A stretch of DNA of 64,000 nucleotides from NCBI GenBank assembly GCA_951406725.2, contig OX597814.1, positions 143,220,001-143,284,000 of the forward strand. Reading direction: 5' to 3'. The position numbers and the translations under genes are program-made. The notes under the pieces are model-generated. The model was given only the letters and a program-made list of their open reading frames with translations, made no database searches and was not told the origin of the DNA. Origin of the DNA: Octopus vulgaris. Its lineage: Eukaryota. Shown here one piece after another: positions 4,561-64,000 of the stretch (within the stretch, counting starts at the first letter, position 1; each line of letters opens with the position of its first letter).

Positions 4561-5121
4561 TCCATCATTTACTTATAATGGTTATATGATTATATGCATC
4601 CATCAGCCAAATAGGGAGGGCTATTATTTAACTATGGTGATTTGTCACCATTTTTATCTTGAGCGAGCATTTTCTTTCCTTCACAAAATGCAGTGAAAAG
4701 TTTTTACAGGTTCAAAAATCTCTGAAGCAAACTTGAACTGATTTTAAAATTATTTACTCTCAGTTACTGCTTCACCCATCTAATCATGAATCTGTGTATT
4801 TATGTATAATTTAATGAAAGTAATATAGAGTTGTGAAATTACAAAGTTTTGAAATTATATAAGATAGGATATGATAATCAGATATTATAAGAATATTATT
4901 AAATTTGTTAAGTCTACCGTCGATGTATTAGAATAAAAACAGATTACGAAAATAATGAGAAATTATAACATTTATTAAACTATATTAAACTAATTTAATA
5001 ATATTATTCTACTCTAGTAGTGGAAGTAATATTATTAACTTTAACATAGGTGCAAGCATACCTGTATGGTTAAGAAGATCTCATTGTAACCAGGCGGTTT
5101 TAGATTCCGTCTCACTGCATG

Positions 5122-5265
5122 GTATTCGATCGGATTTAAATTGGAACTTTGAGTTGGCCAGTCCATGAGAACAATACCATTTGAGTCAAACCATTGACGA
5201 GTATTCTTTGCTGTATGACTCCGAGTGTTGTTCTGTTGAAAGATAACACTGTGTTTCGACACTCC
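5122..5265 (-). mobile_element. Tc1-like transposase fragment
   Basis: IFQQNNTRSHTAK...WPTQSSNLNPIE matches the Tc1 FQQDNA..H / WPSQSPDLNPIE catalytic region. Confidence 0.8.
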
Positions 5266-5409
5266 TGGATGCAATTTAGTAATTAATGGCTCTAAAGTGC
5301 ATTCTAATTCCCTTGGACTGACCAATACCTTGTGAGAGAATTTGGTAGATGGACTCTATGAAGAAGCCCATTATATGATACCCCATCGTAGCTACATCTC
5401 AAGTGAAGG

Positions 5410-6342
5410 ATAAAGATAAACTGCGGACATGCTGGGGCTCCACCAGGAAAAGGTGTTAGTCGAGCAAATAGATCCCAGGACATACTTCTTTATGTCTAGT
5501 ACTGATTTTATCGGTCTTTTTTGCCGAATCGCTAAGTTACGGGGACGTAAACACACCGAGCCGTGTGTGGGACAAACACACATACACATACACACACGCG
5601 CGCACACACACATAGATACATCTATATATATATATAGAGAGAGAGAAGTCATTTTTCTGTTTCCATCTACCAGATCCACTCACAAGGTTTGGTCGGCCCG
5701 AGGCTACAGTAGAAGACACTCAACCAAGGTGCCAGGTAGTGGGACTTAACCTGGAACCATGTGGTTGAGAAGCTAGTTTCTTATTTTTTTATTTCCCACA
5801 AAGGGCTAAACATAGAGGGGACAAAGAAGGACAGGCAAAGGGATTAAGTCGATTACACCGACCCCAGTGCGTAACTGGTACTTTATTTATCAACCCCGAA
5901 TGATGAAAGGCAAAGTCGACTTCGGCGGAATTTGAACTCAGAACGTAACGGCAGACGAAATACTTATTTCTTTACTACCCGCAAGGGGCTAAACACAGAG
6001 AGGACAAACAAGGACAGACAAACGGATTAATCGATTATATCAACCACAGTGCGTAACTGGTACTTAATTTATCGACCCCGAAGGATGAAAGGCAAAGTCA
6101 ACCTCGGCGGAATTTGAACCCAGAACGTAACGGCAGACAAAATACGGCGACGCATTTCACCCAGCGTGCTAACGTTTTTGCCAGCTCGCCGCCTTGAAGG
6201 CAAAGTCGACCTCAGCGGAATTTGAACTCAGAACGTAGTGGCAGACAAAATACTGCTAAGCTTTTCGCCCGGTGTGCTAACGTTTCTGCCAGCTCGCCGC
6301 CTTATTGGGAAGCAAGTTTCTTACCACACAGCTACGCCTATA
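5410..6342 (-). mobile_element. tRNA-derived SINE family 1 copy, interrupted in its head by a family-2 SINE array
   Basis: Colinear with the intact copy at 8715-9145; head is split at ~5782 and resumes at ~6305. Confidence 0.85.
5783..6304 (-). mobile_element. Tandem array of SINE family 2 (tailed, young)
   Basis: Two tail-bearing units plus a head fragment; flanked by an imperfect 18-bp duplication TTG(A/G)GAAGC(T/A)AGTTTCTT. Confidence 0.85.
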
Positions 6343-11130: not shown

Positions 11131-13671
11131 TAAACCGTCTTATCTCTAATAACTTTGATGAGTCCTAAGCGCCACTCCTCAACAACATCAATTGACTGAA
11201 TACTTTTTAAGATCTCTCTTTATAAAAAACTTGCTCTTGTCTGACTGGCAGGATATCCGCAAATTCTCTCGTTTAAATATAAACATACCTTAACCCTCCA
11301 TACACACAGACGAGTATACGTGCACAATTTGTATATGTAAAAAAAAACAAACAAAAAAAAAAACAGACAAAAATGTCTGTCTGCCCCAAATTTGCAGATA
11401 GACATTTGTTGCAAAATTCTCAAACTCGCCACTCCTCAACGAAGACGGATTTCGAATTTCATTGGAGAGATCTGATTAGTGGAGAGTGAATCACAGAAAA
11501 TAACACAAATTGACAAATATGTTCGTCATCCCTAATTTGCGCCATTGCGTTTAAAATATTGAAAGGAAGGGTGATGTTATTCTCTGTACTTTTATTGGTT
11601 TCTGTTATTGGAGTGCGGCCGTACCGAAGCATCGAGTATAGTCGATTACATCGAACCAAGTGTTTATAATGGTTTCAAATTTGACACAAGGTCAGCAATT
11701 TCGGAGTAGGGAATAAATCGATTACATCGACTCCAGTGGTCAACTGGTACTTATTTCATCGAGCCTGAAAGGATGAAATGCAAAATCGGCCTCGACGGAA
11801 TTTGAATGCAGAACGTAAAGAAGAATGAAATGCTGCAAAGTATTTTCCCCGGCGTACTTAACGATTCTTATTTCTTTATTGCCCACAAGGGGCTAAACAT
11901 AGAGGGGACAAACAAGGACATTAAGTCGATTACATCGACCCCAGTGCGTAATTGGTACTTAATTTATCGACCCCGAAAGGATGAAAGGCAAAGTCGACCT
12001 CGGCGGAATTTGAACTTAGAACGTAACGGCAGTCGAAATACCTATTTCTTTATTACCCACAAGGGGCTAAACACAGAGAGAACAAACAAGGACAGACAAA
12101 CGGATTAAGTCAATTATATCGACCCTAGTGCGTAACTGGTACTTATTTAATCAACCCCGAAAGGATGAAAGGCAAAGTCTACCTTGTCGGAATTTGAACT
12201 CAGAACGTAACGGCAGATGAAATACCGCAAAACATTTCGCCCGGCTTGCTAACGTTTCTGCCAGCTCGCCGCCTTATTCCAAGTATGTAGGATATTGATT
12301 TCAAAATTTTGACCCAAGGCCAGCAAGTTCTAAGGAGGGGTAAGCCGGTTACATCAGCCTCCGTGTTCAACTGGTACTTATTTGATCTACCCGAAATGGA
12401 TGAAATGTAAAGCCAACTTCGGTGATATTTGAACTCAGGACGTAAGGACGGACGAACTGCCGCCGAGCATTTTATCGGTCCCGAAGTAATGAAAGGCAAA
12501 GTCAGCCTCGACAGAATTTGAACGCATAACGTAATTAAGGACGAAACGCCGCTAAGCATTTTGCCCGTAGACCAGGGTACACTTATCCTTAATACCCATT
12601 TCTTCTTACACAGACTCAAGTCTTTGGAATACCCTCCCACACACACACACATACACACACTGTTCAAGTTAATTCTTTCTGTTGTTGAATTTCAGAAGAA
12701 ACATTAGCTACATCGATCGCACCAGACTCGATGGGCTCTGAGAAGGCTTTTGGTAAAGTTCCCTCCTCGAGACAAAATCTAATAAAAATTTTTTTATTTA
12801 AATAAAGGAAAAGAAACGCTTCCCCAAATGAAAACAATCATTTATGTATTTAAATTTAATGTTCTTCTTTTGAATTGGAAGTTATTGGTTTTCCGTCGAT
12901 TTCGATGATGATTATTTAGTTGTTCGCTCAAGTGAATCGCCTGTTCTTAGAATCAATGTGTAAGGTAGCTGAGCAATTCAGAGGTACGTGTACCCTTAAC
13001 GTAAGTCTCTGATAGAATCAGCATGACACAAAGTGTGATGAAGCTGTACTTTTGAATTGCAGATACAACTCATCCGACGGGGTTCATCATAGTTTCCGTC
13101 TACCCTCAGTTTCACTCATACGGTATGGGTTGACTTGATATAAAAACAACAAAAAAAAAAACATTAACTCAAAATGTCTCGCATTGAGATGGAACCAGAG
13201 AGTTCGTGATTGCGAAAAAAAGTAACCCCTCCCCAACTCTTTACTAGAATGAAAGGAAATTGGACGCGATTATGATAAGAAGTATCGTTGCTGTTACCTG
13301 CTTCATCTTTTGCAAATCGAAATGTAATGGAATAATTGTGATACTAATTTATTTATGAACGTCTGTAATTTTCTGTTACTTACTTGCCACTAATCCGATG
13401 TCACTAATCCGATATATTATCAAAACCATCTTTGTTGAGGAGCAACAAGTAGGAAAATCTTGCAAAATTATCTGTCTGCAGTTTTGATGGGTTAAGATAT
13501 ATTTTATTTAAACGAGAGAATTTGCGGATATCCTGTTGGTCAGACAAGTACATTTTTAATAGAGATCTTGAAAATATTCTTTCATGAATACGTGACAATT
13601 TAGTGGCTAGACGTTATTGAGGAGTGACACTAAGAATGATTCATCGAAGTTATAAGAGTTGAGGAGGTTTA
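11131..13671. mobile_element. Putative long-TIR (foldback-type) non-autonomous element with nested SINEs
   Basis: 11131-11430 and ~13440-13671 are diverged inverted copies (e.g. GGATATCCGCAAATTCTCTCGTTTAA vs TTAAACGAGAGAATTTGCGGATATCC). Confidence 0.55.
11869..12275 (-). mobile_element. Tandem array of SINE family 2 inside an older related SINE
   Basis: Two tail-bearing units nearly identical to those at 5.8, 26.5 and 63.6 kb. Confidence 0.85.
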
Positions 13672-25470: not shown

Positions 25471-25900
25471 TACGAGGGGAAGTCAAAATTTTTCAGCATT
25501 TTTGCCATAGCATATCTTTATTATTGTAACACTGCTTTCTGCACATGCGCGCTTAAAGTTGGTGCCATTGAGGTCTCGTGATCGAAGCTTGAGCCTCCTC
25601 GCGCTATTTTTCTTTCTGACTTTACAGTGTAAACATGGCCGCTCCGCTAGCAATGAGCACCAAAGAAGGACAAAGAGCAGTAATCCGATTTCTCTGGCCG
25701 GAATGTGTATCAGGTACTGAAATTCATCGGAGGCTTTCAACACAATACAGGAACTGTTCACTACAGCGTAGAAGTGTGTATGAGTGGATCGAGAAGTTTA
25801 AAAGTGGTCGGACAAGGGTGATGCATGATGAGGGAGCAGGACACCCATCAACCTCTACCACCGATGAGAAGATTCAGGAAGCTCGAGAGATGGTAATGGT
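25471..25900 (+). mobile_element. Mariner 5' fragment (TIR plus HTH-encoding ORF start)
   Basis: TA-CGAGGGGAAGTCAAAA terminus; ORF 25635 QRAVIRFLW...EIHRRL..QY...SVYEWIEKFKSGR...GHP is a typical mariner DNA-binding domain. Confidence 0.85.
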
Positions 25901-26478
25901 GAAGCCACAAATTTCAGGCCTTGTGCATATTCTAGAAAGGATTTATGAAAACTTAATTATCGTGTAGTTATCTTCTTCTTGTTCTTTCTAACCCTGATCT
26001 CAGCTATTCACATTACATAACAAAATGTGTATTCTTGTTTTCAGGAATATTTACATTTGTCGGTCCACATTTTGGCCTCGAACATGCAGACTATACTCCA
26101 AGGTATTCGTTATTCATAACTTTATTGGCTGGACTCCTGTCCATAGTTGCTGGTAGTATGCACATAGTTGTGGTTAAAAGAACAGTCTGCGAATGAGGAA
26201 ATTTCCATTACCAAAGTGCAAAATCATTTACGTTTTGCCCCTTTAATTTACACAATTAAAACAAAAACTGTAAAGAAAATTAATTTTTCAAATTTTATTT
26301 TGTATTTGAAAATAAACGATTTCATATGTCTATTATGTGTGTCTTTGAGTTTTTACTATTTCTATCTTTATTCAATTAATCAGTCAGATAATTATCGCAC
26401 AAAACTAATGACTTAGACAATGCGGCACCTATCATCAGAATCATCGTTGTCGTCGTCATCAACGTCATATCCATCATC

Positions 26479-26896
26479 AAGGCGTCGAGCTGGCAGTAAC
26501 GTTAGCATGCCGGGCGAAATACTTAGCAGTATTTCGTCTGTCTTCACGTTCCGAGTTCAAATATCCAACGAGGTCGACTTTGCCTTTCATCCTTTCGGGG
26601 TCGATTAAATAAGTACCAGTTACGCACTGGGGTCGATATAATCGATTTAATCCGTTTGTCTGTCCTTGTTTGTTCTCTCTGTGTTTAGCCCCTTGTGGGT
26701 AGTAAAGAAATAGGTATTTCGTCTGTCGTTACGTTCTGAGTTCAAATTCCGCCGAGGTCGACTTTGCCTTTCATCCTTTCGGGGTCGATAAACTAAGTAC
26801 CAGTTACGCACTGGGGTCGATGTAACCGACTTAATCCGTTTGTCTGTCCTTGTTTGTCCCCTCTGTGTTTAGCCCCTTTTAGGCAATAAAGAAATA
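26479..26896 (+). mobile_element. Tandem array of SINE family 2 followed by an older SINE
   Basis: Head AAGGCGTCGAGCTGGC; two units ending ...AAAGAAATA. Confidence 0.88.
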
Positions 26897-27168
26897 AGAA
26901 TCGTTAGTATGCGGAGCAAAATGCTCAGTGGTGTTTCATCTGTCTCCAGGTTCTAAATTCAAATTCTGCCGAGGTCGACTTCACCTTTCATCTTTTCTCA
27001 GTCGAAAATATAAGTTGCGCTCTTTACGTTCTAATTATGCCACTTTTGTCTTTGCCGCTCATCCTTTTGGGGTTGATTAAATAAATACTAGTTGAGAACT
27101 GGAGCCGTTGTAATTGACTGTTTCCCCTATACCACCAAATTTCAGGCCTTTTGCCTATAGTAGAAAGG

Positions 27169-27169
<1 letters not shown>

Positions 27170-27204
<35 letters not shown>

Positions 27205-27784: not shown

Positions 27785-29430
27785 ATTTCATTGTCATTGC
27801 ACAGCTTCTAATACTGGAGATGTATTATGATGTCAGCTGTTCACTATCAGTGAACTAAGGTAACACCCCTTATATTTCGGAGTATTCGGAGTGCTGTTTA
27901 CTGCAAGTGCTCCACCTTTATTGCAGACCCTATTTGTTCCATGTACTTCTCAAGACTTTTAATACCACCTTTTTCAGCGACCACAATTACTTACCCCCCA
28001 CCCCACCCCAAGCTAACCTGTTATATCTATTGACATTTCTTTCTTCCTTATCGCATACCTTGTTCTCAGCTGGGTATACTATATCTATGATCCAGCATCT
28101 CAGGGTCGCACTGAATCATAAAATTCCATAGGATTTTTGCATTATCATTTTCAATGATGTCTTCGGGTTTATGTTCATACCACGTTTTTGCTCTGTCATG
28201 TCCATACTTGTTGCAAAGTGTCCAATGGACAATCCTTGCTATATTGTCATGACGTCTCTTATATTCTTTCTAGGCAAGTGGCGTACATTGACTTGTAATA
28301 TGCCATACAGCTTCACCATTTTGTCCACAAATTCTGCACTAATCACTTTCTGATGTCTTGTTTATTCTGTATTTGATGTAATTCGTTATTAATATTTGCT
28401 CCGTTTCCTGTTTCAAATCACTTTTAGTCATCCATAACCATCTTTTTCCTCTGTGTGTCTTATCTTCAACATCCCTCTGAAATTGACCATGCATTCTTTT
28501 CTTTACCCACCTATTTTCAGTTTCATTTGTTTTCAATTTCTTGTGCAATGCTTTATCATTGCAATCTTTCATCCTACACAAGCCTGACCTTCCTACTTAT
28601 AATATTAGCGGTTCTGTGGCATTTTTTACATACCATGCTATGTTGTTTTCTTCTGCTCTAATACTGTGTTTGCATCCAATCAGTCCTCTTTCCCCTCTTT
28701 TTCTTGGTACATACAGTCTGTCTGTGTCACATTTTGGGTGGAGAATCCCATATCTAGTCAGCAACTTCCCTGTCGTTCTGTCTAAGGTGTTTAGACCGTC
28801 TACTGTCCATGCGGTTACCCTTGCTCCATATCTGAGTAGCGAAACCGCCCAGGTGTTGATAGGTTCAACCTTATTCCGTCCGTTTAATTTCGACTTAAGG
28901 ATCAGTCTCAGTCTGCGCAAGTACACCACCTCAAATTTTTCTGTCATTTCTTTCTCTATCAATTTATCCATTTCCAATATCCCCAAGTACTTATAGCCCG
29001 ACTCTTCTATCTGCTTCATAACCTCCCCCGACTGTGTCGCTAGCCCGTCTATACATTTGATTTTGCCTATCTTCAAGATTGACACACCGCACGTTTTCAG
29101 TCCGAACTCCATTCTGATATCAGCACTGAAAGTATATACCGTATCAACAACTGACTTGGGGTTCATCTTTATCATAAAGTTTGAGGTCCTCCATGTATAA
29201 CAAGTGGTTTACTTTTTGTTGGCGGCTCTTGAATACATACCCAGCTTTTGCTTCCTCAGAATCAATGTTAGTGGTATCATACATAGTACAAAGATCAGTG
29301 GGGACAGGTAGTCCCCTTGGAAGATATATCTCCTGATTTCTGTTGTCCCTAAGCTTCTTCTGTATGCTATCATTTCCGTCCTCCACTTCGCCACACTTTT
29401 TCCAAGTAATCGCTCAACATTCGATGCAAT
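27785..29430 (-). mobile_element. 5'-truncated R4/Dong/Rex6-like non-LTR retrotransposon (RT region, decayed)
   Basis: IFQGDYLSPLIF, HLLYMEDLKLY, FSADIRMEFGLKTC, YKYLGILE, LNGRNKVEPINTWAV, LYVPRKRGERGL; flanked by (TTA/TTG)n. Confidence 0.85.
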
Positions 29431-38774: not shown

Positions 38775-39645
38775 TGCTGTGAGTCAATGGGCAGACAAAA
38801 ACAAAATACAACTAAACGAGGGAGAATTTGAGCTGGTGTATTTTGGAAAAAAGACTATGCTAAAATAGCCATACACTCTTCCTTCAGGAGAACTTCTCAC
38901 AGCATCTAATAATATCAGAGACCTAGGAGTAAGTTTTGATAACAATCTCAGTTGGAGTGTCCACATCAACAATATGATCGATATAGCTCGTAGAATGAGC
39001 TCCTGGATCCTAAGAACCTTCCGGTCCAGAGAACAAGGTGTCATCCTTCCATTTTTCTCCTCCTTTGTACGGCCACATCTCGAACTCTGCTGCCCCTTGT
39101 GGTCTCCCCATACAACATCTCGAAAATTGAATTACCCCAAAGGTCATTCACTAAAAGAATTAAGAGCATGACTGATCTCGATTACTGGGGCCGCTTTAAA
39201 GCATTAAAACTTTATTCTTTCCAGCAACGCTGTGAGCAATATATCATTTGCACAATGTGGAGAATGTACCACCAGCATTGCCCAAATGACTTCAACATTA
39301 GCTACAAAATTCATCCAAGGCTAGGAACACGGGCCATACGTCCGCTACCCAATCCAGGATTACAACACATAAATACACTGCAACGCAATTTCTTTTCCTT
39401 GCCAGGCCATACACTATTTAACATTGTCTCGACACAGGTCAGAGAAGGAAAGGATCTCATTACCATTAAACGGAATCTGGACAAATTTCTTCAAGTAATA
39501 CCAGATAAGCCACCTATACATGGATTCAACTCACTCAACAAGAACTCCCTACTTGAATGGACTATGATACCAAAAAAATTTGAATTTAAAAGGATTTAGA
39601 TAATCCTATCAGGTGGTGCTATTAATTTAGACATGGCCTGGACCA
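38775..39645 (+). mobile_element. 5'-truncated CR1-like LINE (RT C-terminal region)
   Basis: QWADKNKIQLNEG, IRDLGVSFDNNLSW..HI, WILRTF, FVRPHLELCCPLWSP, QRSFTKRI...LKLYS; frameshifted. Confidence 0.88.
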
Positions 39646-54736: not shown

Positions 54737-55602
54737 CCATTTCGATCGCACCTACAATACTCGTCTCCCTCCTTCTCATCCACGTTCTTGTTTTCGTCTC
54801 CCCCCCCTCTTAGTCATCATCATCTTTCTTCTTTTTCTTCTTTCTCCTCCCCTTCCTCCTCAGAACTCTTCAACTTCCCACCCCCCTTCTTATTCACTGT
54901 TGTTCTTTTTTTTCCTCCACCTCCTCACCTTCTTCCTCTTCGTTATTATTGTTGTTGTTGTTGTTCTTCTTCTTCTTCTTCAATTTCTTAAAACACTTAA
55001 CATGTTGGCTAAGGATTTTTAACAATAAATTCTTTTTTAAATACTTAGCATTGTGAATATATTTTTTTTCAAAATTATTACTATTTTAATCATAATAAAA
55101 CCTATGTTTCATATATATCTTGTCGTTTGTTCCTTCTCGAGCCATACCTATCTCATAGGGGCCGGTTTCCCGGTTTCCTTGGCGTATAGATTCCTCGCCT
55201 GGACGGGGCGCATGCTACTGAACAATTTGCCTCGCGTGAAACCAAGAATAAACAATGTAATAATCAAAATAAGCGCGTAGAAACTAACCTCATCTAATCG
55301 CCCTTGAAGTTGTAGATCACACATCAAAGTAGCACCGAAGATTGATTAAGGCAATTTCGCAAACTACGGAGAAGTTGGTAAATTTGACAAATTTGTAGGC
55401 CCACTACGTAGGTTTTATTCTTTTAGCTGTTTCATTCATTTGACTACGACCATGCTGGGGCAACGCCTTTATTCGAGCAAATCGATCCCACGACCTATTT
55501 TTCGTAAGCCCAGTACTTATTCTATCGGTCTCTTTTGCTGAAAGTTACGGGGACGTACACACACTAGCATCGGTTGTCAAGCGATGCGGTGGCGGGGGAG
55601 GC

Positions 55603-55654
<52 letters not shown>

Positions 55655-55783
55655 GATGGGCTTTTTTCAGTTTCCGTCTACCAAATCTATTTACAAGGCT
55701 TCGGTCGGCCGAGAAGATATTTGCCCAAGATGCCACGCAGTGGGACTGAACCCGGAACCATGTGGTTGGTTAGCAAGCTACTT

Positions 55784-57995
55784 TATTTCAAAACATTTGC
55801 CATAAAGGCAGTACACAGATTAAGTTAGCTTTGCGGGCTGGACGAGGACATTAATGAGGTGAATGATAATGAAAGAAAGATGATAAGGATGGGAGAAGAC
55901 AGAAAGCGCCCGCCGACTTTTGCTTCTCTAAAACATTGTTCTTTTTAAAAAAAGATTAACACAAAACGAGGTATTAAACCTCTTACAATTTTTCCAATAA
56001 AACGAGGTATTAATCCTCTTACAATTTTTCAATTTTTGGACTTAAGTCCATTACTAATAATACATATCGTCCTCGAAATAGCTTGTGCCCGCGCCCTCCA
56101 CCATCAACCACGCCTCCCTCAGAACGTAGTCAAGTTCCGAGTTCGCGTCGCCCGGGACCAAGTTATAGTCTTCATTGAGCTCCTTTAGCCCTAGCGTCAC
56201 GTCGAACGCCACGGCCTCCACAGCTACCTGCGGAGGCCATTCGGGGTCCTGTGTGAAGGCTAAAGGTGCTCCCTTGTAGTGCTCTTCCATCACTTTTTCA
56301 ATTTCTCCTCCTCTATAGAAGAGGACCAATACATTCAGTTCTTTCGTTGGCGGCACAGTTTCCGCCAACGGTATTCCTTCTCTTGTCGGTGGCACAACCC
56401 CAACCGACGTAGTTCCGCGACATTCCGGTGCCACACTGACAGCCGGCAACGTCCCGTTTTTCTTCCTCTTTTTCTTTTTTTTTCCCTTTTCAACTGAGGG
56501 AGGGTGCGTCTCCTCCGTGGCTGGAAGATTCGCCCTCCTCTCCTCGTCCCTATTATCCTTTGGTGAGCACCCATTGTTGCTCACCTTCCTCTTTCGGCCT
56601 CTGCTTGAGGAGTCCTCTGCTTTCTCGGCCGTTATCGTTCCCTCTTCTAGAGGGGTTTTACTTAACTGTTCCGGGATCCTATTTTGTTCCCGAGGACAGT
56701 TCTTCTTTATGTGGCCGGACTCCAAGCACCGATGACACTTAGGGGGGCGACCCTCAAGCATCACCGGGTACCTGCACCCGGCCATTTTCAAAAAATCTGG
56801 AAAAACCAGATTGGCTGATTGGGTCCACAGGGTCAAAACTGCTTTCGAGCCAACCCAAGCAGCCGCAGGAAGAACTTTTACATTGAGGAGCTTAGTTTCG
56901 CTGTCACCCAGACCCCGGCGGATAGTGTCCTCTATCCACTCGGGTTCTATGTCGGGTGGCAGTCCGCAGATCCAAGCTTTCATTAATTTCTTTTTTTTGT
57001 AAGTGGGCAGGAATAAGATTTCCTTACCCTCCAAGGGTTCGCTAGCAAATTTGCAAGCCTCTTCAGGGGTGTCAAACAGCAACCACACCGTTCCATATTT
57101 GACACCCCTGGAAATGAATTTAATTGTTGGCAAATACTCCTCCAACTCCTCCTCAATTGCCGTCTTTTCGAATAGGGCGATGGTGTCAAGTGCCTTGGAG
57201 TAGGTTCTCAACACCACCGTCCTATCTTCACGGTCCTTCAACCACTTTTTGGGTGGTATGATTTCCCACTCCAAAACTTTGTTATTTTTCATTGCCATGT
57301 TTTTTAAAAAATATATTCAAATTAGACTCAAAAGCAGGAAGAAAAAAGTTCAAAAGTCTAAATAAATTTGATAGGTTTTTGAAAAAACAAAAAGGAGAAA
57401 GCACAACAGAAGGGAAGAAATTTACGGAAAGTCGCAATAAAGAAAAAACAAAAGGGGGGGGGGTAAATGAAGTTCAAAAGAAAGTTAATAAACAGAAAAA
57501 ACACAGCAAAAATATTCTGCGGTACTCCCGGCCTGGGTTGAACCTGGAACTCCGCAACTGCAACACAACCTCCACAAAAATGGGTCCGAAAGGTAATCCA
57601 ATAGTGGCTTATTTTTATACTTTTCTTGCGAAGTACTCTGACAAGGGAATAAATTCAGCAAACTCAAACACAGCACTGGTTACTGCCAACGGTAATTTTA
57701 ACAGTAACTGTATTGAATCCTGAGTATACGCCCCTCCACTGTTTTTTCTTTTTTTTTTTTTTTTTTCAATGAACACAAAAACGGCAGCCGCCTAGCGCAG
57801 GCGAAATTGTCTCAGAGTTGGACACAACCTACTGAAATAATAATTGGCACGCAATAAATTATGCCCAACTCACAATAAACAAAATCACTTACCTCGACAA
57901 CTTTCCGTTTTTGGTCTTTTTTCTTTAGTTGGACAGAGCTTGTTACTCGCGTCCGCTCTAGCTCAACAAGAAGCAACCGACTAACTGCGCATGTC
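55784..57995 (-). mobile_element. Element A: ORF1-only (non-autonomous) site-specific non-LTR retroelement
   Basis: 17-bp TSD TGGTTAGCAAGCTACTT (55767-55783 and 57996-58012); single ORF; structured 3' UTR; no RT, LTR or TIR. Confidence 0.85.
56054..57298 (-). CDS. ORF1/Gag-like nucleic-acid-binding protein, 414 aa (RRM-like region plus CCHC zinc knuckle; Tx1/L1-group-like)
   Basis: Uninterrupted GC-rich ORF; AAAAAC-ATG-G start; FPDFLKMAGCRYPVMLEGRPPKCHRCLESGHIKKNCP (CX2CX4HX4C at 56696-56737); basic NLS-like tracts; homolog next door. Confidence 0.9.
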   Translation of the reverse strand: MAMKNNKVLEWEIIPPKKWLKDREDRTVVLRTYSKALDTIALFEKTAIEEELEEYLPTIKFISRGVKYGTVWLLFDTPEEACKFASEPLEGKEILFLPTYKKKKLMKAWICGLPPDIEPEWIEDTIRRGLGDSETKLLNVKVLPAAAWVGSKAVLTLWTQSANLVFPDFLKMAGCRYPVMLEGRPPKCHRCLESGHIKKNCPREQNRIPEQLSKTPLEEGTITAEKAEDSSSRGRKRKVSNNGCSPKDNRDEERRANLPATEETHPPSVEKGKKKKKRKKNGTLPAVSVAPECRGTTSVGVVPPTREGIPLAETVPPTKELNVLVLFYRGGEIEKVMEEHYKGAPLAFTQDPEWPPQVAVEAVAFDVTLGLKELNEDYNLVPGDANSELDYVLREAWLMVEGAGTSYFEDDMYY

Positions 57996-58012
57996 TGGTT
58001 AGCAAGCTACTT

Positions 58013-59973
58013 TATTTTATATAATTTGCCACTAGGGCAGCACACAGAGTAGTAGCTACGGGCTGGACAAGGACATTAATGGATGATGGTGGTGGTGGAT
58101 GAAGATGGTGATGGGAGAAGTCGAAAGCGCCCGCCGACTTTCGCTTCTCTAAAACAATGTTTCAATAAATACATTTAATAAAATGTTCAAAAATTGTTCA
58201 ACAATTCTTCTCGTCAGGTCCCCGAAGCAAATTGTCTTGCCGCCTGCAGACAACTCTGCGACGACAAGTCGGGGCCTGCAAAGAGAAAGGTAAAGTCTTT
58301 CTTTTCAAAGGTCTCTGCGACCCTTGACAAAGTATCTTCTGTTACTTTTTCCGCAGCTACCTGCGGAGGCCATAACGGACTCCTTGAGCCGACCGTGTCC
58401 TTACGCTCTCGGTCACCCAAGCCATTCAAGAATCTTTCAACCTCCTCTCCCTTGTGGTAAAGGAGGAGAAGCATCTCCTCTTCACAGGGAGGGACCTCAC
58501 ACTGCTCCGTCGGTGGCACACTTCCCACTGGCGGAGCCTTGTCCGCGGGTGGCACACATCCCACCCGCGGCTCCGTCGGCGACACAGAAACGTCAGTCGT
58601 CCGACCTCTCCTTTTTCTCCTCCTTCTTTTGGGGGAGACTGCTGACCCAGGGGACTCCGTCACCAGACACGGGGGATTGCTATCCCCCTTCGCCCCCTGA
58701 GCGTTCTTTGGCGGGCAACCATTGTTGCTCGCCTTTCTCTTTCTTTTCGTGGAGGCAACCTCCTCCACGACTTCCATCGTCTCCCCCTCCAATGAGGGGG
58801 CGGCGGGCGCCTTTTCCCCTCTCTGCTCCGGGGCACCACTACGGCCTCTGGGACAATTCTTCCTGATATGTCCGGGCTTCAGGCACAGGTGACACTTGGG
58901 GGGGCGACCCTCGAGTATCACCGGGTACCTGTGCCCAGCCATTCTCAGGAAGTCCGGGAATTTCATTTCCCCCACGGCTATCGGTGTCCACAGGGTCAAA
59001 GTTGCCCTCGACCCCTGCCAGGCGACCGCGGGAGCCACCTTCACACTCAGCAGTCTGGGTCCGCTATCCCCCAGGCCTCGCCGGATGGTCTTCTCGATCC
59101 ATTCCGCCTCCGTGCCCGGGGGCAGCCCACACACCCAGGCTCTTTTCACTTTTCTGCCACAATACGAGGGGAGGAACAAAATTTCCTCTCCCTCCAGTGG
59201 CTCGCTAGCAAATCTGCTAGCTTCCTCGGGGGTACCAAACAGCAACCAGACCGTTGCAAATTTACTCCCCCGAGAAATAAATTTTATAGTTGGCAGGTAG
59301 TCCCCCAACTCTTTCTCTATAGTATTCTTGTCGAAGAGGGCAATGGCTCCACGCGACCTAGAATAGGTTCGTAGGACCACCGTCCTCTTCTCAAGACTTT
59401 CAATCCACTGCTTGGGTGGGACGACCTCCCATTCCAAAGCGGTGGTTTCTTTTGTCGCCATGTTTTTTTTGTTTTTTTTTTAAATAAATGTATTTAGAAT
59501 AAAACTAAAAAACGAGAAGAAAAAGAAATCCGAAGAATGTCACAATGAAAAACGGAGAGAGTCAAATAAAGTTGAAAAGAAAGTCAAATAAAGTTAAAAA
59601 GAAAGTCAAAAACACAGCAAAATCCTTTTGGCCATTTGGTACTCCCGGCCTAAATCGAACCAGGATCGCACAACTTCCACAAAAATTGGTAGTTCTTCAC
59701 AGCACCATACAATTTTCACAATTCGAAGACGGATACGCCCCCCCAAATTTTCTCAGCGAGAAAAATATATCTGCCACATGTCGGCAGAATCAGAATTCTG
59801 AATCCAGTAGGACTTCCTGCATGTAAAACATAATTCTCAACAAAAACTCCCACTGGACCCAGAAAACAGAATCTCACCTTACATGGGGCTTCCAAAGTTT
59901 CAATTCAAGACGGCTTCAAAAGCACATCTTCACTGCTTCAGTAGCAAACACAACACTGACTCGCACATGCGCA
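58013..59973 (-). mobile_element. Element B: ORF1-only (non-autonomous) site-specific non-LTR retroelement
   Basis: 15-bp TSD GTTAGCAAGCTACTT (57998-58012 and 59974-59988); same layout as element A. Confidence 0.85.
58214..59461 (-). CDS. ORF1/Gag-like nucleic-acid-binding protein, 415 aa (homolog of 56054-57298)
   Basis: Intact ORF; GRPPKCHLCLKPGHIRKNCP knuckle at 58853-58894; about 68 of the first 100 residues identical to element A protein by manual alignment. Confidence 0.9.
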   Translation of the reverse strand: MATKETTALEWEVVPPKQWIESLEKRTVVLRTYSRSRGAIALFDKNTIEKELGDYLPTIKFISRGSKFATVWLLFGTPEEASRFASEPLEGEEILFLPSYCGRKVKRAWVCGLPPGTEAEWIEKTIRRGLGDSGPRLLSVKVAPAVAWQGSRATLTLWTPIAVGEMKFPDFLRMAGHRYPVILEGRPPKCHLCLKPGHIRKNCPRGRSGAPEQRGEKAPAAPSLEGETMEVVEEVASTKRKRKASNNGCPPKNAQGAKGDSNPPCLVTESPGSAVSPKRRRRKRRGRTTDVSVSPTEPRVGCVPPADKAPPVGSVPPTEQCEVPPCEEEMLLLLYHKGEEVERFLNGLGDRERKDTVGSRSPLWPPQVAAEKVTEDTLSRVAETFEKKDFTFLFAGPDLSSQSCLQAARQFASGT

Positions 59974-62414
59974 GTTAGCAAGCTACTTACCACACAGCCA
60001 CTCCTGCGCCTATGTACATGATTTTGAAAAAACTATTCAGTTTTAAGTCAGCTCTGATAAAGCACTCCTCTGATTAAAGGCCTGCCAACTATGAAGCCCT
60101 GATGTTTCTGTTCAGATTCAGCGCACCTCATTTTACTTTATCCTATCCCTTCCCTTTTTTTAAGCCGGCAAGTTATAACTTCAGAGAAATTATGCTGCTA
60201 TTTCTTACAGATCAATTGATCTCGCAGAGGCTTCCTCATTGGTTTGAGATCGATAGACAAATGCAAATTTCAGTGTTCATATATCTCCTAAATCATTTTG
60301 ACGATCATCAAATTCTCTCGTCCGTTCTAATCCTTTCCTTATCTGAACTGATAACGACTAACATCATTAACATTTAAATCATTTGTCTTGTAGTCTTCAT
60401 TATAGAAGCATATGATAAATGTTTCTTAAGTGTCTATTGAATATGCTATGCTCGAATTAGCAACAGTTACCATGTCTATTATGAAACAAACTATCCACGC
60501 CTTCACTACATTGCCGATTCTTAATTTAAATTAATCAAAACTTTGGTTGCGTAGACGCATTTCAAAGTTATTTTTCATTTTGATTTTGAGTTGTCTCCCT
60601 TGCCATTGTTTGGTTCATTTAGTAACCTCCTACACGATACAGTTTGTAATCTTTATCAGTGAAGGTTATTGTGCTCCTCACATTCAGTGTGTTTTCACAG
60701 ATACTTCACTAGATTCCGTTAAAGTATAGATTTTCGCAGTAAGCAACGTTTGCAGAAATTTATAAACCACATTAGAAAAGCTTATGAACTTGAGAAACAT
60801 GAAATAAAAACTGACACGGATCTCTCCCCAAGGATTATTGGAAAATACTACGTAACACAATAACAAATTTAAAATGTAGAAAATAAACCTTTTAACTGAG
60901 AAGGTTGAACATTGGGACATGAAATGGAAAACATAGACACTGTAGGGAATAAATCCCGTTATAATCCTGGAATGAAGTGCCAACAAATTTAGGAAGGGAA
61001 CTCTATTCCATTCAAAAGCAAGTAATTACTATAAATTAGCGATTGCACAGAAGACAGAAAGCGTTATCAGACAATAGATGTAAACGTAAAACAAAAATGG
61101 AGTCTGAAAAATATTTGCTGCGTCATTACTAAGTGTAAAGGAAAAGATCCATGAAATAGTTTCTCAGTGAAGAGATGTTGTAGCTAGCCAAAAGCTATCG
61201 TAAGAATAAATTCACAACAACCACATCAGACAGACATAACAGAATCAACAGATTAAAAGAATATACTGTAGTTAATGGCATTATAATAATCACACTTTCC
61301 CTCTAAAATGTCTCAAAATTTCACCCGGGTCCTATGTGCGAAGTTGGGCTTTCCATAAACTGTTTTAGTGCACTAAAAATGTTTTATCCAGAATATACAC
61401 TGCTGAAACTGAGATGCGTCTTGTATGCCCGTGCGACTCTCATGTCGTCGAATACGGTAGGTAGAAGCAAAAAGAAAGGAAAACACAATTGATAAAATAT
61501 TGTTTAGGGAGAATAGGAAAAATAGGAATGCAAAAGTGCTCTGCTGAGGCAGTCAGTGACCCATTTGAGAATACCAATGCGGTTTTCAAATATTGCTAGA
61601 AAAAGGAAACCCCTAATCATAACCGATTAAGCTTTTATAAATCCAATAACGAGATGCAGTCCTATCTTTATAACGATTTTCTTTGGACCTAAAGGGTATG
61701 TAATAAACCGCATGGTTAGATCAAATTATGGTAGAGCTAGAATTCGCGATTAAAGAACCATGGATCTAGAATTCATGGGTTAGAGATTATCACTATATTC
61801 AGGATAATGGAAAATTTTAAGATCTTAGAGTTTAAAAGTTAACTGGATAGTCAAAAATGGACGAAAAGGAGAAGAAAGAAGCATCGTTTTTTTGTTTTCT
61901 CTTGTTTATTTTTTCTTTGCAATATTGCCATTATGATGGCCAAAGGGTTGGTTAAAAGATCAATAAAATCCAATCACAAAGTGAACCATACATTTTAGGT
62001 GTGAATGCGTATATCTCTTCTTTTCCTTCTGTCTGTTAGTCTGCTCTTCTCTCTCTCTCCCTCTCTCTCTCTCTCTCTCCCTCTCTCTCTCCCTCTCTCT
62101 CTCTCTCTCTGTTTGTTTGTCACTCACTCCTGTATGTATCGATGGTTTGTATGTATATCATTATTCAATTTTATTTCAAGATTTCTAGCCTATAGAGAAA
62201 GAGCCGATTTTTAACCTAGATCCCAGACTCCTTCATTGAAATTTCAACATCAGCAGACTTGTATGTTTTGTTTGTGTATGTATTTTTATGTTTTGTTTGT
62301 GTATGACATTCTCATATATACCTAAATGATAAAATTCTGGAAAGTTTTACAGACTTTTACAGTTCCACTGATGGCGTGAATCAGTAGTCTTCGAATCAGC
62401 TTTCGCCTTTCCCC

Positions 62415-63545: not shown

Positions 63546-64000
63546 TATTTCTTTACTACCCACAAGGGGCTAAACACAGGGAGGACAAACAAGGGCCGAC
63601 AAACGGATTAAGTCGATTATATCGACCCCAGTACGTAACTGGTACTTATTTAATCGACCCCGAAAGGATGAAAGGCAAATTCGACCTCGGTGGAATTTGA
63701 ACTCAGAACGTAACCGTAGACGAAATACCTATTTCTTTACTACCCACAAGGGGATAAACACAGAGAGGACAAACAAGGACAGACAGACGGATTAAGTCGA
63801 TTACATCGACCCCAGTGCGTAACTGGTACTTATTTAATCGACCCCGAAAGGATGAAAGGCAAAGTCGACCTCGGCGGAATTTGAACTCAGAACGTAGCGA
63901 CAGACGAAATACGGCTACACATTTCGCCCGGCGTGCTAACGTTTCTGCCAGCTCGCCGCCTTTTGTGACCGTAGACGAAATACCTATTTCTTTATTACCC
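63546..64000 (-). mobile_element. Tandem array of SINE family 2 (runs off the window end)
   Basis: Two tail-bearing units plus head, and the start of a third tail at ~63984. Confidence 0.88.

What the first reader, a model, noticed from the sequence alone, without database searches (positions are those of the whole stretch)
58013..58075. ORF1-only elements share their 3' terminus with SINE family 2
Sense strand of element B ends TGTCCTTGT-N17-CTCTGTGT-GCT-GCCCTAGTGGC-N10-AAATA. Element A ends TGTCCTCGT...TCTGTGT-ACT-GCCTTTATGGC...GAAATA. SINE family 2 (e.g. 26661-26712) ends TGTCCTTGT-N7-CTCTGTGT-TTA-GCCCCTTGTGGGT-AGTAAAG-AAATA. The blocks are in the same order, with the same small terminal GCC/GGC-type hairpin and the same AAATA end without poly(A). 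SINEs sharing a 3' tail with their partner LINE is established. Inference: this SINE and the ORF1-only elements are both clients of one unseen RT.
Basis: partly seen in the sequence, partly recalled or inferred. Interest (0 to 1): 0.78.

Follow-up and report, generated by a model that had tools for sequence, protein, structure and literature searches.

The report
Retrotransposon guild nesting inside SINE heads
The two one-gene mobile elements here sit at one fixed site inside a common short repeat, and a complete, young retrotransposon found elsewhere in the genome uses the same site and the same last 30 bases, so it likely moves them; the SINE has a related tail but is likely moved mostly by sister enzymes.

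Summary
The motifs are there, but the direct match of elements A/B to SINE2 is weak (B 127 and A 2336 of 5000 shuffles score as well). The missing reverse transcriptase exists. An autonomous L1/Tx1-type LINE ('C', 5.44 kb, ORF1 plus 1133-aa endonuclease/RT/zinc-finger ORF2; both ORFs open in 3 of 16 copies) ends like A/B over the last 27-37 nt (0-1 of 1000 shuffles). It inserts at the same base of the tRNA-related SINE1 head with the same 15-bp duplication (29 of 30 loci) and forms mixed head-to-tail arrays with A/B. A/B are old ORF1-only lineages under purifying selection (dN/dS about 0.13), not deletion copies of C (ORF1 29% identical). SINE2's tail comes from the same LINE radiation, and at least 308 SINE2 copies sit at the same SINE1 site (about 100-fold over uniform; one at window 5765-6322). 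But that is about 0.2% of SINE2 tails, its last 25 nt match other LINE families better, and its targets are looser. 'One RT for both' is therefore only partly supported. New variant of known Tx1 transposon-targeting and ORF1-only biology.

The parts
58013..59973 (-). Element B, ORF1-only non-autonomous retrotransposon, 1961 bp
   Evidence: Bounded by 15-bp duplications; multi-copy, up to 99% identical; no ORF2 remnant
58214..59461 (-). B ORF1, 415 aa, CCHC zinc knuckle at residues 189-204
   Evidence: knuckle below Pfam cut-off; 23-34% identical to ORF1s of autonomous LINEs of this genome
58013..58039 (-). B terminal 27 nt shared with LINE C: 4-bp hairpin, AT-rich spacer, end
   Evidence: 23 of 27 identical, 0 of 1000 shuffles
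58115..58149 (-). Predicted stem-loop in B 3' UTR, conserved in A (55893-55928)
   Evidence: fold prediction only; B z -1.9, A z 0.0 for the whole 150-nt pieces
55784..57997 (-). Element A, ORF1-only non-autonomous retrotransposon, 2214 bp
56054..57298 (-). A ORF1, 414 aa, CCHC zinc knuckle at residues 187-202
   Evidence: dN 0.21, dS 1.67 against B over 203 codons
59974..59988 (-). Target-site duplication copy 1 (15 bp, part of SINE1 head)
   Evidence: read directly
57998..58012 (-). Target-site duplication copy 2, between B and A
   Evidence: read directly
55769..55783 (-). Target-site duplication copy 3
   Evidence: read directly
59989..60012 (-). 5' piece of the interrupted SINE1 head (A-box-like side)
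55450..55768 (-). Remainder of the interrupted SINE1 (B-box-like region and body)
   Evidence: T-arm side matches genomic tRNA genes, 0 of 500 shuffles
26481..26896 (+). SINE2 head plus two 184-bp units, each ending in the LINE-type tail (26654-26712, 26838-26896)
5783..6303 (-). SINE2 array inserted in a SINE1 head at the same site as A/B; duplication 6305-6322 and 5765-5782 (16 of 18 identical)
   Evidence: read directly; SINE1 pieces on both sides

Best explanation
Elements A and B are ORF1-only retrotransposons that share their last 27-37 bases, their exact insertion site in the SINE1 head and their 15-bp duplication with an intact L1/Tx1-type LINE (C) of the same genome, and are likely copied by C's ORF2 in trans. 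Inferred mechanism: C's endonuclease nicks between the A-box-like and B-box-like parts of SINE1 (about 230,000 sites), its RT likely recognises the small terminal hairpin plus AT-rich end, and target-primed reverse transcription regenerates the site, so later copies of A, B, C and a further ORF1-only family (D) stack head to tail. A/B likely keep ORF1 because it packages their own RNA. SINE2 took its tail from the same LINE radiation but is likely moved mainly by sister RTs with a looser RGWA-type site preference; a small, older-looking fraction was likely placed in the SINE1 site by a C-lineage enzyme.
For: Shown: 30 of 30 top ORF1 loci end at the SINE1 site and none has an ORF2 between ORF1 and the end (includes this window and three pairs from shared arrays). 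29 of 30 loci found by C's ORF2 alone end at the same base; 14 of 16 long C copies have the 15-16-bp duplication at both ends and 3 of 16 have both ORFs open. C has Exo_endo_phos, RVT_1 and zf-RVT over cut-off. C lies next to B in arrays L111/L113, L114, L115, L117, L118. Tail scores B-C 34, A-C 32, D-C 55, SINE2-C 45 and 56, all 0-1 of 1000 shuffles, while A and B reach at best 140 and 3 of 1000 against ten other LINE tails. No other sampled LINE family ends regularly at this site. dN/dS about 0.13 for A versus B. For SINE2: 308 tail-to-SINE1-site junctions versus 0 for the reversed control; 29 of 30 inspected are SINE2 inside SINE1 (27 by BLAST, 2 by eye); about 2.5 expected under uniform insertion (132,257 tails; 15 exact sites in 400 kb). 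SINE2 best tail scores: 68-70 for the F67/F178 family, 55 for C, 50-51 for the F61 group.
Against: Trans-mobilisation is inferred from shared ends and sites, not assayed. A/B share nothing else with C (ORF1 29%, no DNA match beyond the end). One unrelated-type LINE (F61 family, L062/L122) also sits inside an A/B-type array at this site, so the site is not exclusive to C. No LINE with SINE2's commonest target (duplications starting GGTA) was found among about 40 LINE copies from other families, so the 'sister RT' is itself unseen. The genome search scores only the best 150 candidates, so other partners could be missed.
Confidence: 0.75

Rival explanations
1. One RT lineage (C and its ancestors) moves both A/B and SINE2; SINE2 simply lands more loosely because its RNA end differs, as with SINEU-1/2 versus SINEU-3 in crocodilians.
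For: SINE2 shares a 30-nt block with C at 29 of 30; same nick position in SINE1, about 100-fold enriched; SINE2 targets and C's target share an RGWA core; older C-lineage copies sit in the older-looking SINE1 variant that SINE2 uses (L169).
Against: Only about 0.2% of tails at C's site, 0 of 26 in random DNA and 0 of 100 listed; SINE2's last 25 nt is the end type of non-C families; duplication length variable (10-17 nt in 11 of 26, 6 nt in 5, none found in 10) against 15-16 for C; 27 of 29 SINE2 insertions are in a SINE1 variant that 0 of 29 young C copies use; about 143 C-type copies against over 130,000 SINE2 tails.
Confidence: 0.18
2. The A/B-to-SINE2 likeness is incidental: SINE2 reaches the SINE1 site only through a general short-motif preference of an unrelated partner, and its tail match to C reflects low-complexity TGTC repeats.
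For: Direct A/B-SINE2 scores are marginal; if about 5% of SINE2 insertions go to any AAGAA-like word, my rough estimate gives about 90 at SINE1 sites, only threefold below the observed.
Against: SINE2 tails match four LINE tail families at 0-1 of 1000 dinucleotide-preserving shuffles; all belong to one RT group in the quick tree; a terminal hairpin recurs in 23 of 27 tails against 14 expected.
Confidence: 0.07

Closest known systems
Tx1-clade LINEs that target other transposons: Tx1 of Xenopus into Tx1D; crocodilian Tx1-Mar and SINEU into Mariner-N4_AMi (PMC4494074: abstract, introduction, methods, section 15 and passages read)
   Same: Endonuclease-RT LINE with fixed site inside an abundant repeat; non-autonomous partners assigned by shared site; tandem insertions around a duplication; some SINE families only weakly site-biased. 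A sister family here targets (TC)n like Kibi.
   Different: Target is the tRNA-related head of a SINE, not a DNA transposon; clients include protein-coding ORF1-only families; no poly(A); the LINE is young and intact. Tx1-clade membership not tested against named references.
ORF1-only non-autonomous LINEs HAL1 (L1 clade), HeT-A (Jockey clade), Ag-Sponge (CR1 clade) (PMC5786205, passage read; the HAL1 paper itself was not held)
   Same: One ORF1-type protein, no RT, 3' end of an autonomous LINE; mixed head-to-tail arrays with the autonomous partner recall HeT-A/TART (recalled).
   Different: Strictly site-specific in a dispersed SINE, not telomeric or random; ORF1 only 29% identical to the partner's, so not a recent internal deletion; several ORF1 lineages (A/B group, D) carry the same C-type end.
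SINE-LINE common 3' tail (stated in PMC4494074 and PMC5786205); octopus tRNA-SINEs OR1, OR2, OK (Ohshima and Okada 1994; seen only as citations in PMC4824008, PMC4758252; the name OK is recalled)
   Same: SINE2's last 60 nt match LINE 3' ends.
   Different: Tail is a mosaic: proximal block like C and F67, terminal hairpin like F61/F65; no single partner found. Whether SINE1 or SINE2 equal OR1/OR2/OK could not be tested.
Dewa (Tx1-clade, tRNA arrays in fish; recalled, one search found no paper) and Dada DNA transposons in tRNA genes (PMC8869645, passages read)
   Same: Insertion in a tRNA-type sequence near the A box and anticodon region.
   Different: Here the host is a SINE with about 230,000 sites; whether C also enters real tRNA genes was not tested.

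Membership tests
L1/Tx1-group LINE (element C) | ORF2 with AP endonuclease, RT and C-terminal zinc-binding region | tested here: met
   PF03372, PF00078, PF13966 over cut-off; best solved relative human L1 ORF2p, E 4e-67, against 8e-20 for R2
L1/Tx1-group LINE (element C) | Separate ORF1 with zinc knuckle; target-site duplication | tested here: met
   PF00098 over cut-off in L117 ORF1; 467-aa ORF1 open in L308; 15-16-bp duplication in 14 of 16
Tx1 clade proper | RT groups with named Tx1 elements rather than L1 | not testable with these tools
   No named Tx1 protein came; tree has none
Tx1 clade proper | Sequence-specific insertion in multicopy targets (typical, not universal) | tested here: met
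   29 of 30 for C; (TC)n for family F77 in 5 of 5
ORF1-only non-autonomous LINE (HAL1/HeT-A type; A and B) | ORF1 present, no ORF2, spread as such | tested here: met
   (30 of 30); purifying selection
ORF1-only non-autonomous LINE (HAL1/HeT-A type; A and B) | 3' end shared with an autonomous LINE | tested here: met
   last 27-37 nt with C
Bipartite internal-deletion derivative of its partner | 5' part and ORF1 nearly identical to the partner LINE | tested here: not met
   ORF1 29% identical to C; best sampled autonomous ORF1 31-34%; no 5' DNA match
SINE with LINE-derived tail (SINE2) | 3' tail homologous to a LINE 3' end | tested here: met
   0-1 of 1000 shuffles with C, F61, F65, F67, F71, F76
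SINE with LINE-derived tail (SINE2) | One partner with same end and same targets | tested here: inconclusive
tRNA-derived SINE | Head homologous to tRNA | tested here: inconclusive
   SINE1 T-arm side matches genomic tRNA genes (0 of 500 shuffles, best of 20 genes of six amino acids); SINE2 best 14 of 500; ARAGORN finds no tRNA in the window

The most novel reading that the evidence does not exclude
A guild of retroelements has turned an abundant SINE into a renewable landing pad: one young site-specific LINE drives several ancient ORF1-only lineages that stay alive by swapping onto its 30-nt end, building HeT-A/TART-like mixed arrays away from telomeres and disabling each host SINE's promoter, while the same enzyme lineage also delivered a second SINE to that site.
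Probability: 0.45. Interest if true: 0.65.

Novelty: new variant of a known kind. Interest (0 to 1): 0.52.

Why it matters
Intact copies make the system testable in cells, and a site-specific LINE with a 30-nt recruitment signal is of interest for targeted-insertion tools. It also shows ORF1-only elements persisting long apart from their partner's ORF1, and explains mixed arrays that repeat annotation would split. The parts all have precedents.

Tried and rejected
Direct tail scan of the window with A or B: SINE2 not above background. The repeat finder swamped by microsatellites. Rfam: nothing meaningful over A/B or two random stretches; no ribozyme-type hit. One fold (L158:1990-2090) was the wrong stretch and is ignored; single-sequence folds of the tails are not better than shuffles except B (4 of 200). 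Penelope-like pseudo-LTR or retrozyme reading of the SINE2 tandem units: rejected, because tails match LINE 3' ends and duplications flank insertions. A/B as decayed or deleted C: rejected. Idea that C needs A/B's ORF1 because its own is broken: rejected, 3 of 16 copies have both ORFs open. Search for a LINE with SINE2's whole tail and GGTA target: none among the LINE copies. Tree is the quick version; C next to the F67 group has support 86 only. Hairpin test used criteria set after looking and related families, so its p of 3e-4 is indicative; no formal covariation count was run. Sequencing runs: no RNA holder listed. Earlier scan notes: nothing relevant. A genome-wide listing of everything that ends at the SINE1 site was not obtained, so other clients or partners may exist. 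One region was mistyped (1 base) and dropped.

Full report
Setting. The window lies in a 2.8-Gb, 227-contig animal genome. The closest named relative of the RT found below is from Argonauta hians, 64% identical, so an octopod host is likely (inference).

The observation. The quoted motifs are present. A and B ends are clearly homologous (0 of 5000 shuffles). B against SINE2 scores 20, reached by 127 of 5000 shuffles; A against SINE2 is chance level, 2336 of 5000. In a multiple alignment the TCTGTGT block and hairpin align, but the first block is offset and the last AAATA is not the same position. There are two end types: A, B, C, D have hairpin, AT-rich spacer, AATAAAG; SINE2 and the other LINE families have hairpin, AATAAAG, AAAT.

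B (58013-59973) and A (55784-57997) lie head to tail inside one SINE1 head, separated and flanked by three identical 15-bp copies (59974-59988, 57998-58012, 55769-55783). An ORF1 search gave 150 scored matches of 12,081 candidates. All 30 loci returned end at this same site with no ORF2; 29 of 30 have the duplication at the 5' end too, 20 after a SINE1 head and 9 after another element's end. These 30 include this window and three pairs from shared arrays. SINE1's T-arm side matches genomic tRNA genes, and 33 sites were found in 400 kb of evenly spaced DNA, about 230,000 genome-wide by extrapolation.

The partner. A zf-RVT search showed many L1/Tx1-type families ending in SINE2-like tails. Directly upstream of one B copy (L012) lay an ORF2 end whose tail bridges both sides. 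This family, C, occurs beside B in five fetched arrays (16 stretches fetched). It has endonuclease, RT and zf-RVT domains and human L1 ORF2p as best solved relative. A search with its ORF2 end gave 143 of 150 matches at 75% or more; 29 of the 30 loci returned end at the same SINE1 base, one is rearranged. Of 16 long copies, 14 have the 15-16-bp duplication at both ends, 3 have both ORFs open (for example G000:C1:9675100-9681300), and all are 97-99.7% identical to the reference copy. C shares the last 27 nt with B (23 identical) and 37 nt with A, and a 30-nt upstream block with SINE2.

Nature of A and B. Their ORF1s are 49% identical to each other but only 29% to C's and at most 34% to any of the sampled LINE ORF1s; dN 0.21 and dS 1.67 over 203 codons show purifying selection. 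No ORF2 remnant. A third ORF1-only family, D, with a different ORF1 (about 40% to other LINE ORF1s) has the C-type end and the same site. Chimeras with B's ORF1 and A's 3' part are common. So the end and site, not the ORF1, define the group; end swapping is inferred.

SINE2. The window itself holds a SINE2 array inside a SINE1 at the same site, with an 18-bp duplication (5765-6322). Genome-wide there are 308 exact junctions against 0 for the control; 29 of 30 inspected are SINE2 in SINE1, two of them probably one duplicated insertion. Against 132,257 tails (a wider pattern than the numerator, so the share is approximate) that is about 0.2%, yet about 100 times the uniform expectation of 2.5 (my arithmetic). 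Of the first 100 tails listed, 51 run on into SINE2's own internal site and none into SINE1 (counted by eye); in random DNA 0 of 26 did, and solo copies show duplications starting GGTA. Duplication length at the SINE1 site is variable, and 27 of 29 are in a SINE1 variant that 0 of 29 young C copies use. Its tail scores 68-70 with the F67/F178 family, 55 with C, about 50 with the F61 group. All these families fall in one RT group in a quick tree. A short terminal hairpin recurs in 23 of 27 tails (14 expected), with arms that change together by eye, such as TGCC/GGCA, CGCC/GGCG, ATCC/GGAT.

Mechanism. Shown: shared end, site and duplication; intact C; mixed arrays; selection on ORF1. Inferred from standard LINE biology: target-primed reverse transcription by C ORF2, recognition of the terminal hairpin and end, regeneration of the site, and loss of the host SINE's promoter because its two boxes are separated. 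For SINE2 the mover is unresolved: sister RTs are most likely, a C-lineage enzyme for a minority.

Literature. PMC4494074 (abstract, introduction, methods, section 15, passages) describes Tx1 families and SINEU targeting a Mariner element, the closest precedent. PMC5786205 (passages) lists HeT-A, HAL1 and Ag-Sponge as ORF1-only LINEs. PMC13282606 (first third and term search) counts 13 recently active L1-Tx1 families in Octopus vulgaris and has no occurrence of 'target', 'ORF1' or 'non-autonomous' in its main text; its supplements were not read and may hold these families. PMC8869645, PMC4824008, PMC4758252: passages only. Searches found no description of a SINE-head-targeting LINE with ORF1-only clients; Repbase and most subscription papers are not covered.

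Verdict. Observation partly confirmed, interpretation partly supported. The real feature is larger than the finding: a site-specific LINE with ORF1-only passengers nesting in a SINE head. New variant of a known kind; interest 0.52.

Noticed in passing
window 26481-26896, 63546-63960, 11869-12273, 5783-6303: SINE2 forms arrays of one head plus 184-bp units; about half of all tails run into the SINE's own internal site. Repeated self-insertion with homologous 5' joining, or multimeric master copies, could both explain it.
   Followed up: partly
window 26897-27200: An older-looking copy with the SINE2 head and core but a different tail ending in ATT repeats; in 400 kb, 48 core hits, 32 with the LINE-type tail, 7 old-tail hits. 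Suggests a tail swap onto the L1/Tx1 machinery.
   Followed up: partly
L160, L161, L162, L163, L164, L077, L272: A sister LINE family ends directly at (TC)n microsatellites, like Kibi.
   Followed up: partly
L177, L179, L182, L183, L184: The F67 group ends at a fixed site in another repeat that looks by eye like a tRNA-type head in the opposite orientation.
   Followed up: no
L006, L007, L010, L116, L117, L124: Family D: another ORF1-only element with a C-type end and the same SINE1 site; weak RRM_3 hit in its ORF1.
   Followed up: partly
L061, L065, L071, L076, L080, L174: Many other L1/Tx1-type copies are followed directly by the 5' end of another LINE or ORF1-bearing element, so head-to-tail clustering is common across the radiation.
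   Followed up: no
window 59960-59973 and 57983-57997 (-): The 5' ends of B and A both carry a GCGCATG-type palindromic word, recalled as an NRF-1-like promoter motif; full-length 5' ends are precise in most copies.
   Followed up: no
window 28597-29208 (-), 38784-39599: Decayed ORF pieces that read by eye like RT-region fragments of other LINE types; no Pfam hit over cut-off and no match to C ORF2.
   Followed up: partly
window 5041-5355 (-), 25620-25967 (+): ORF pieces that read by eye like Tc1/mariner transposase fragments.
   Followed up: no
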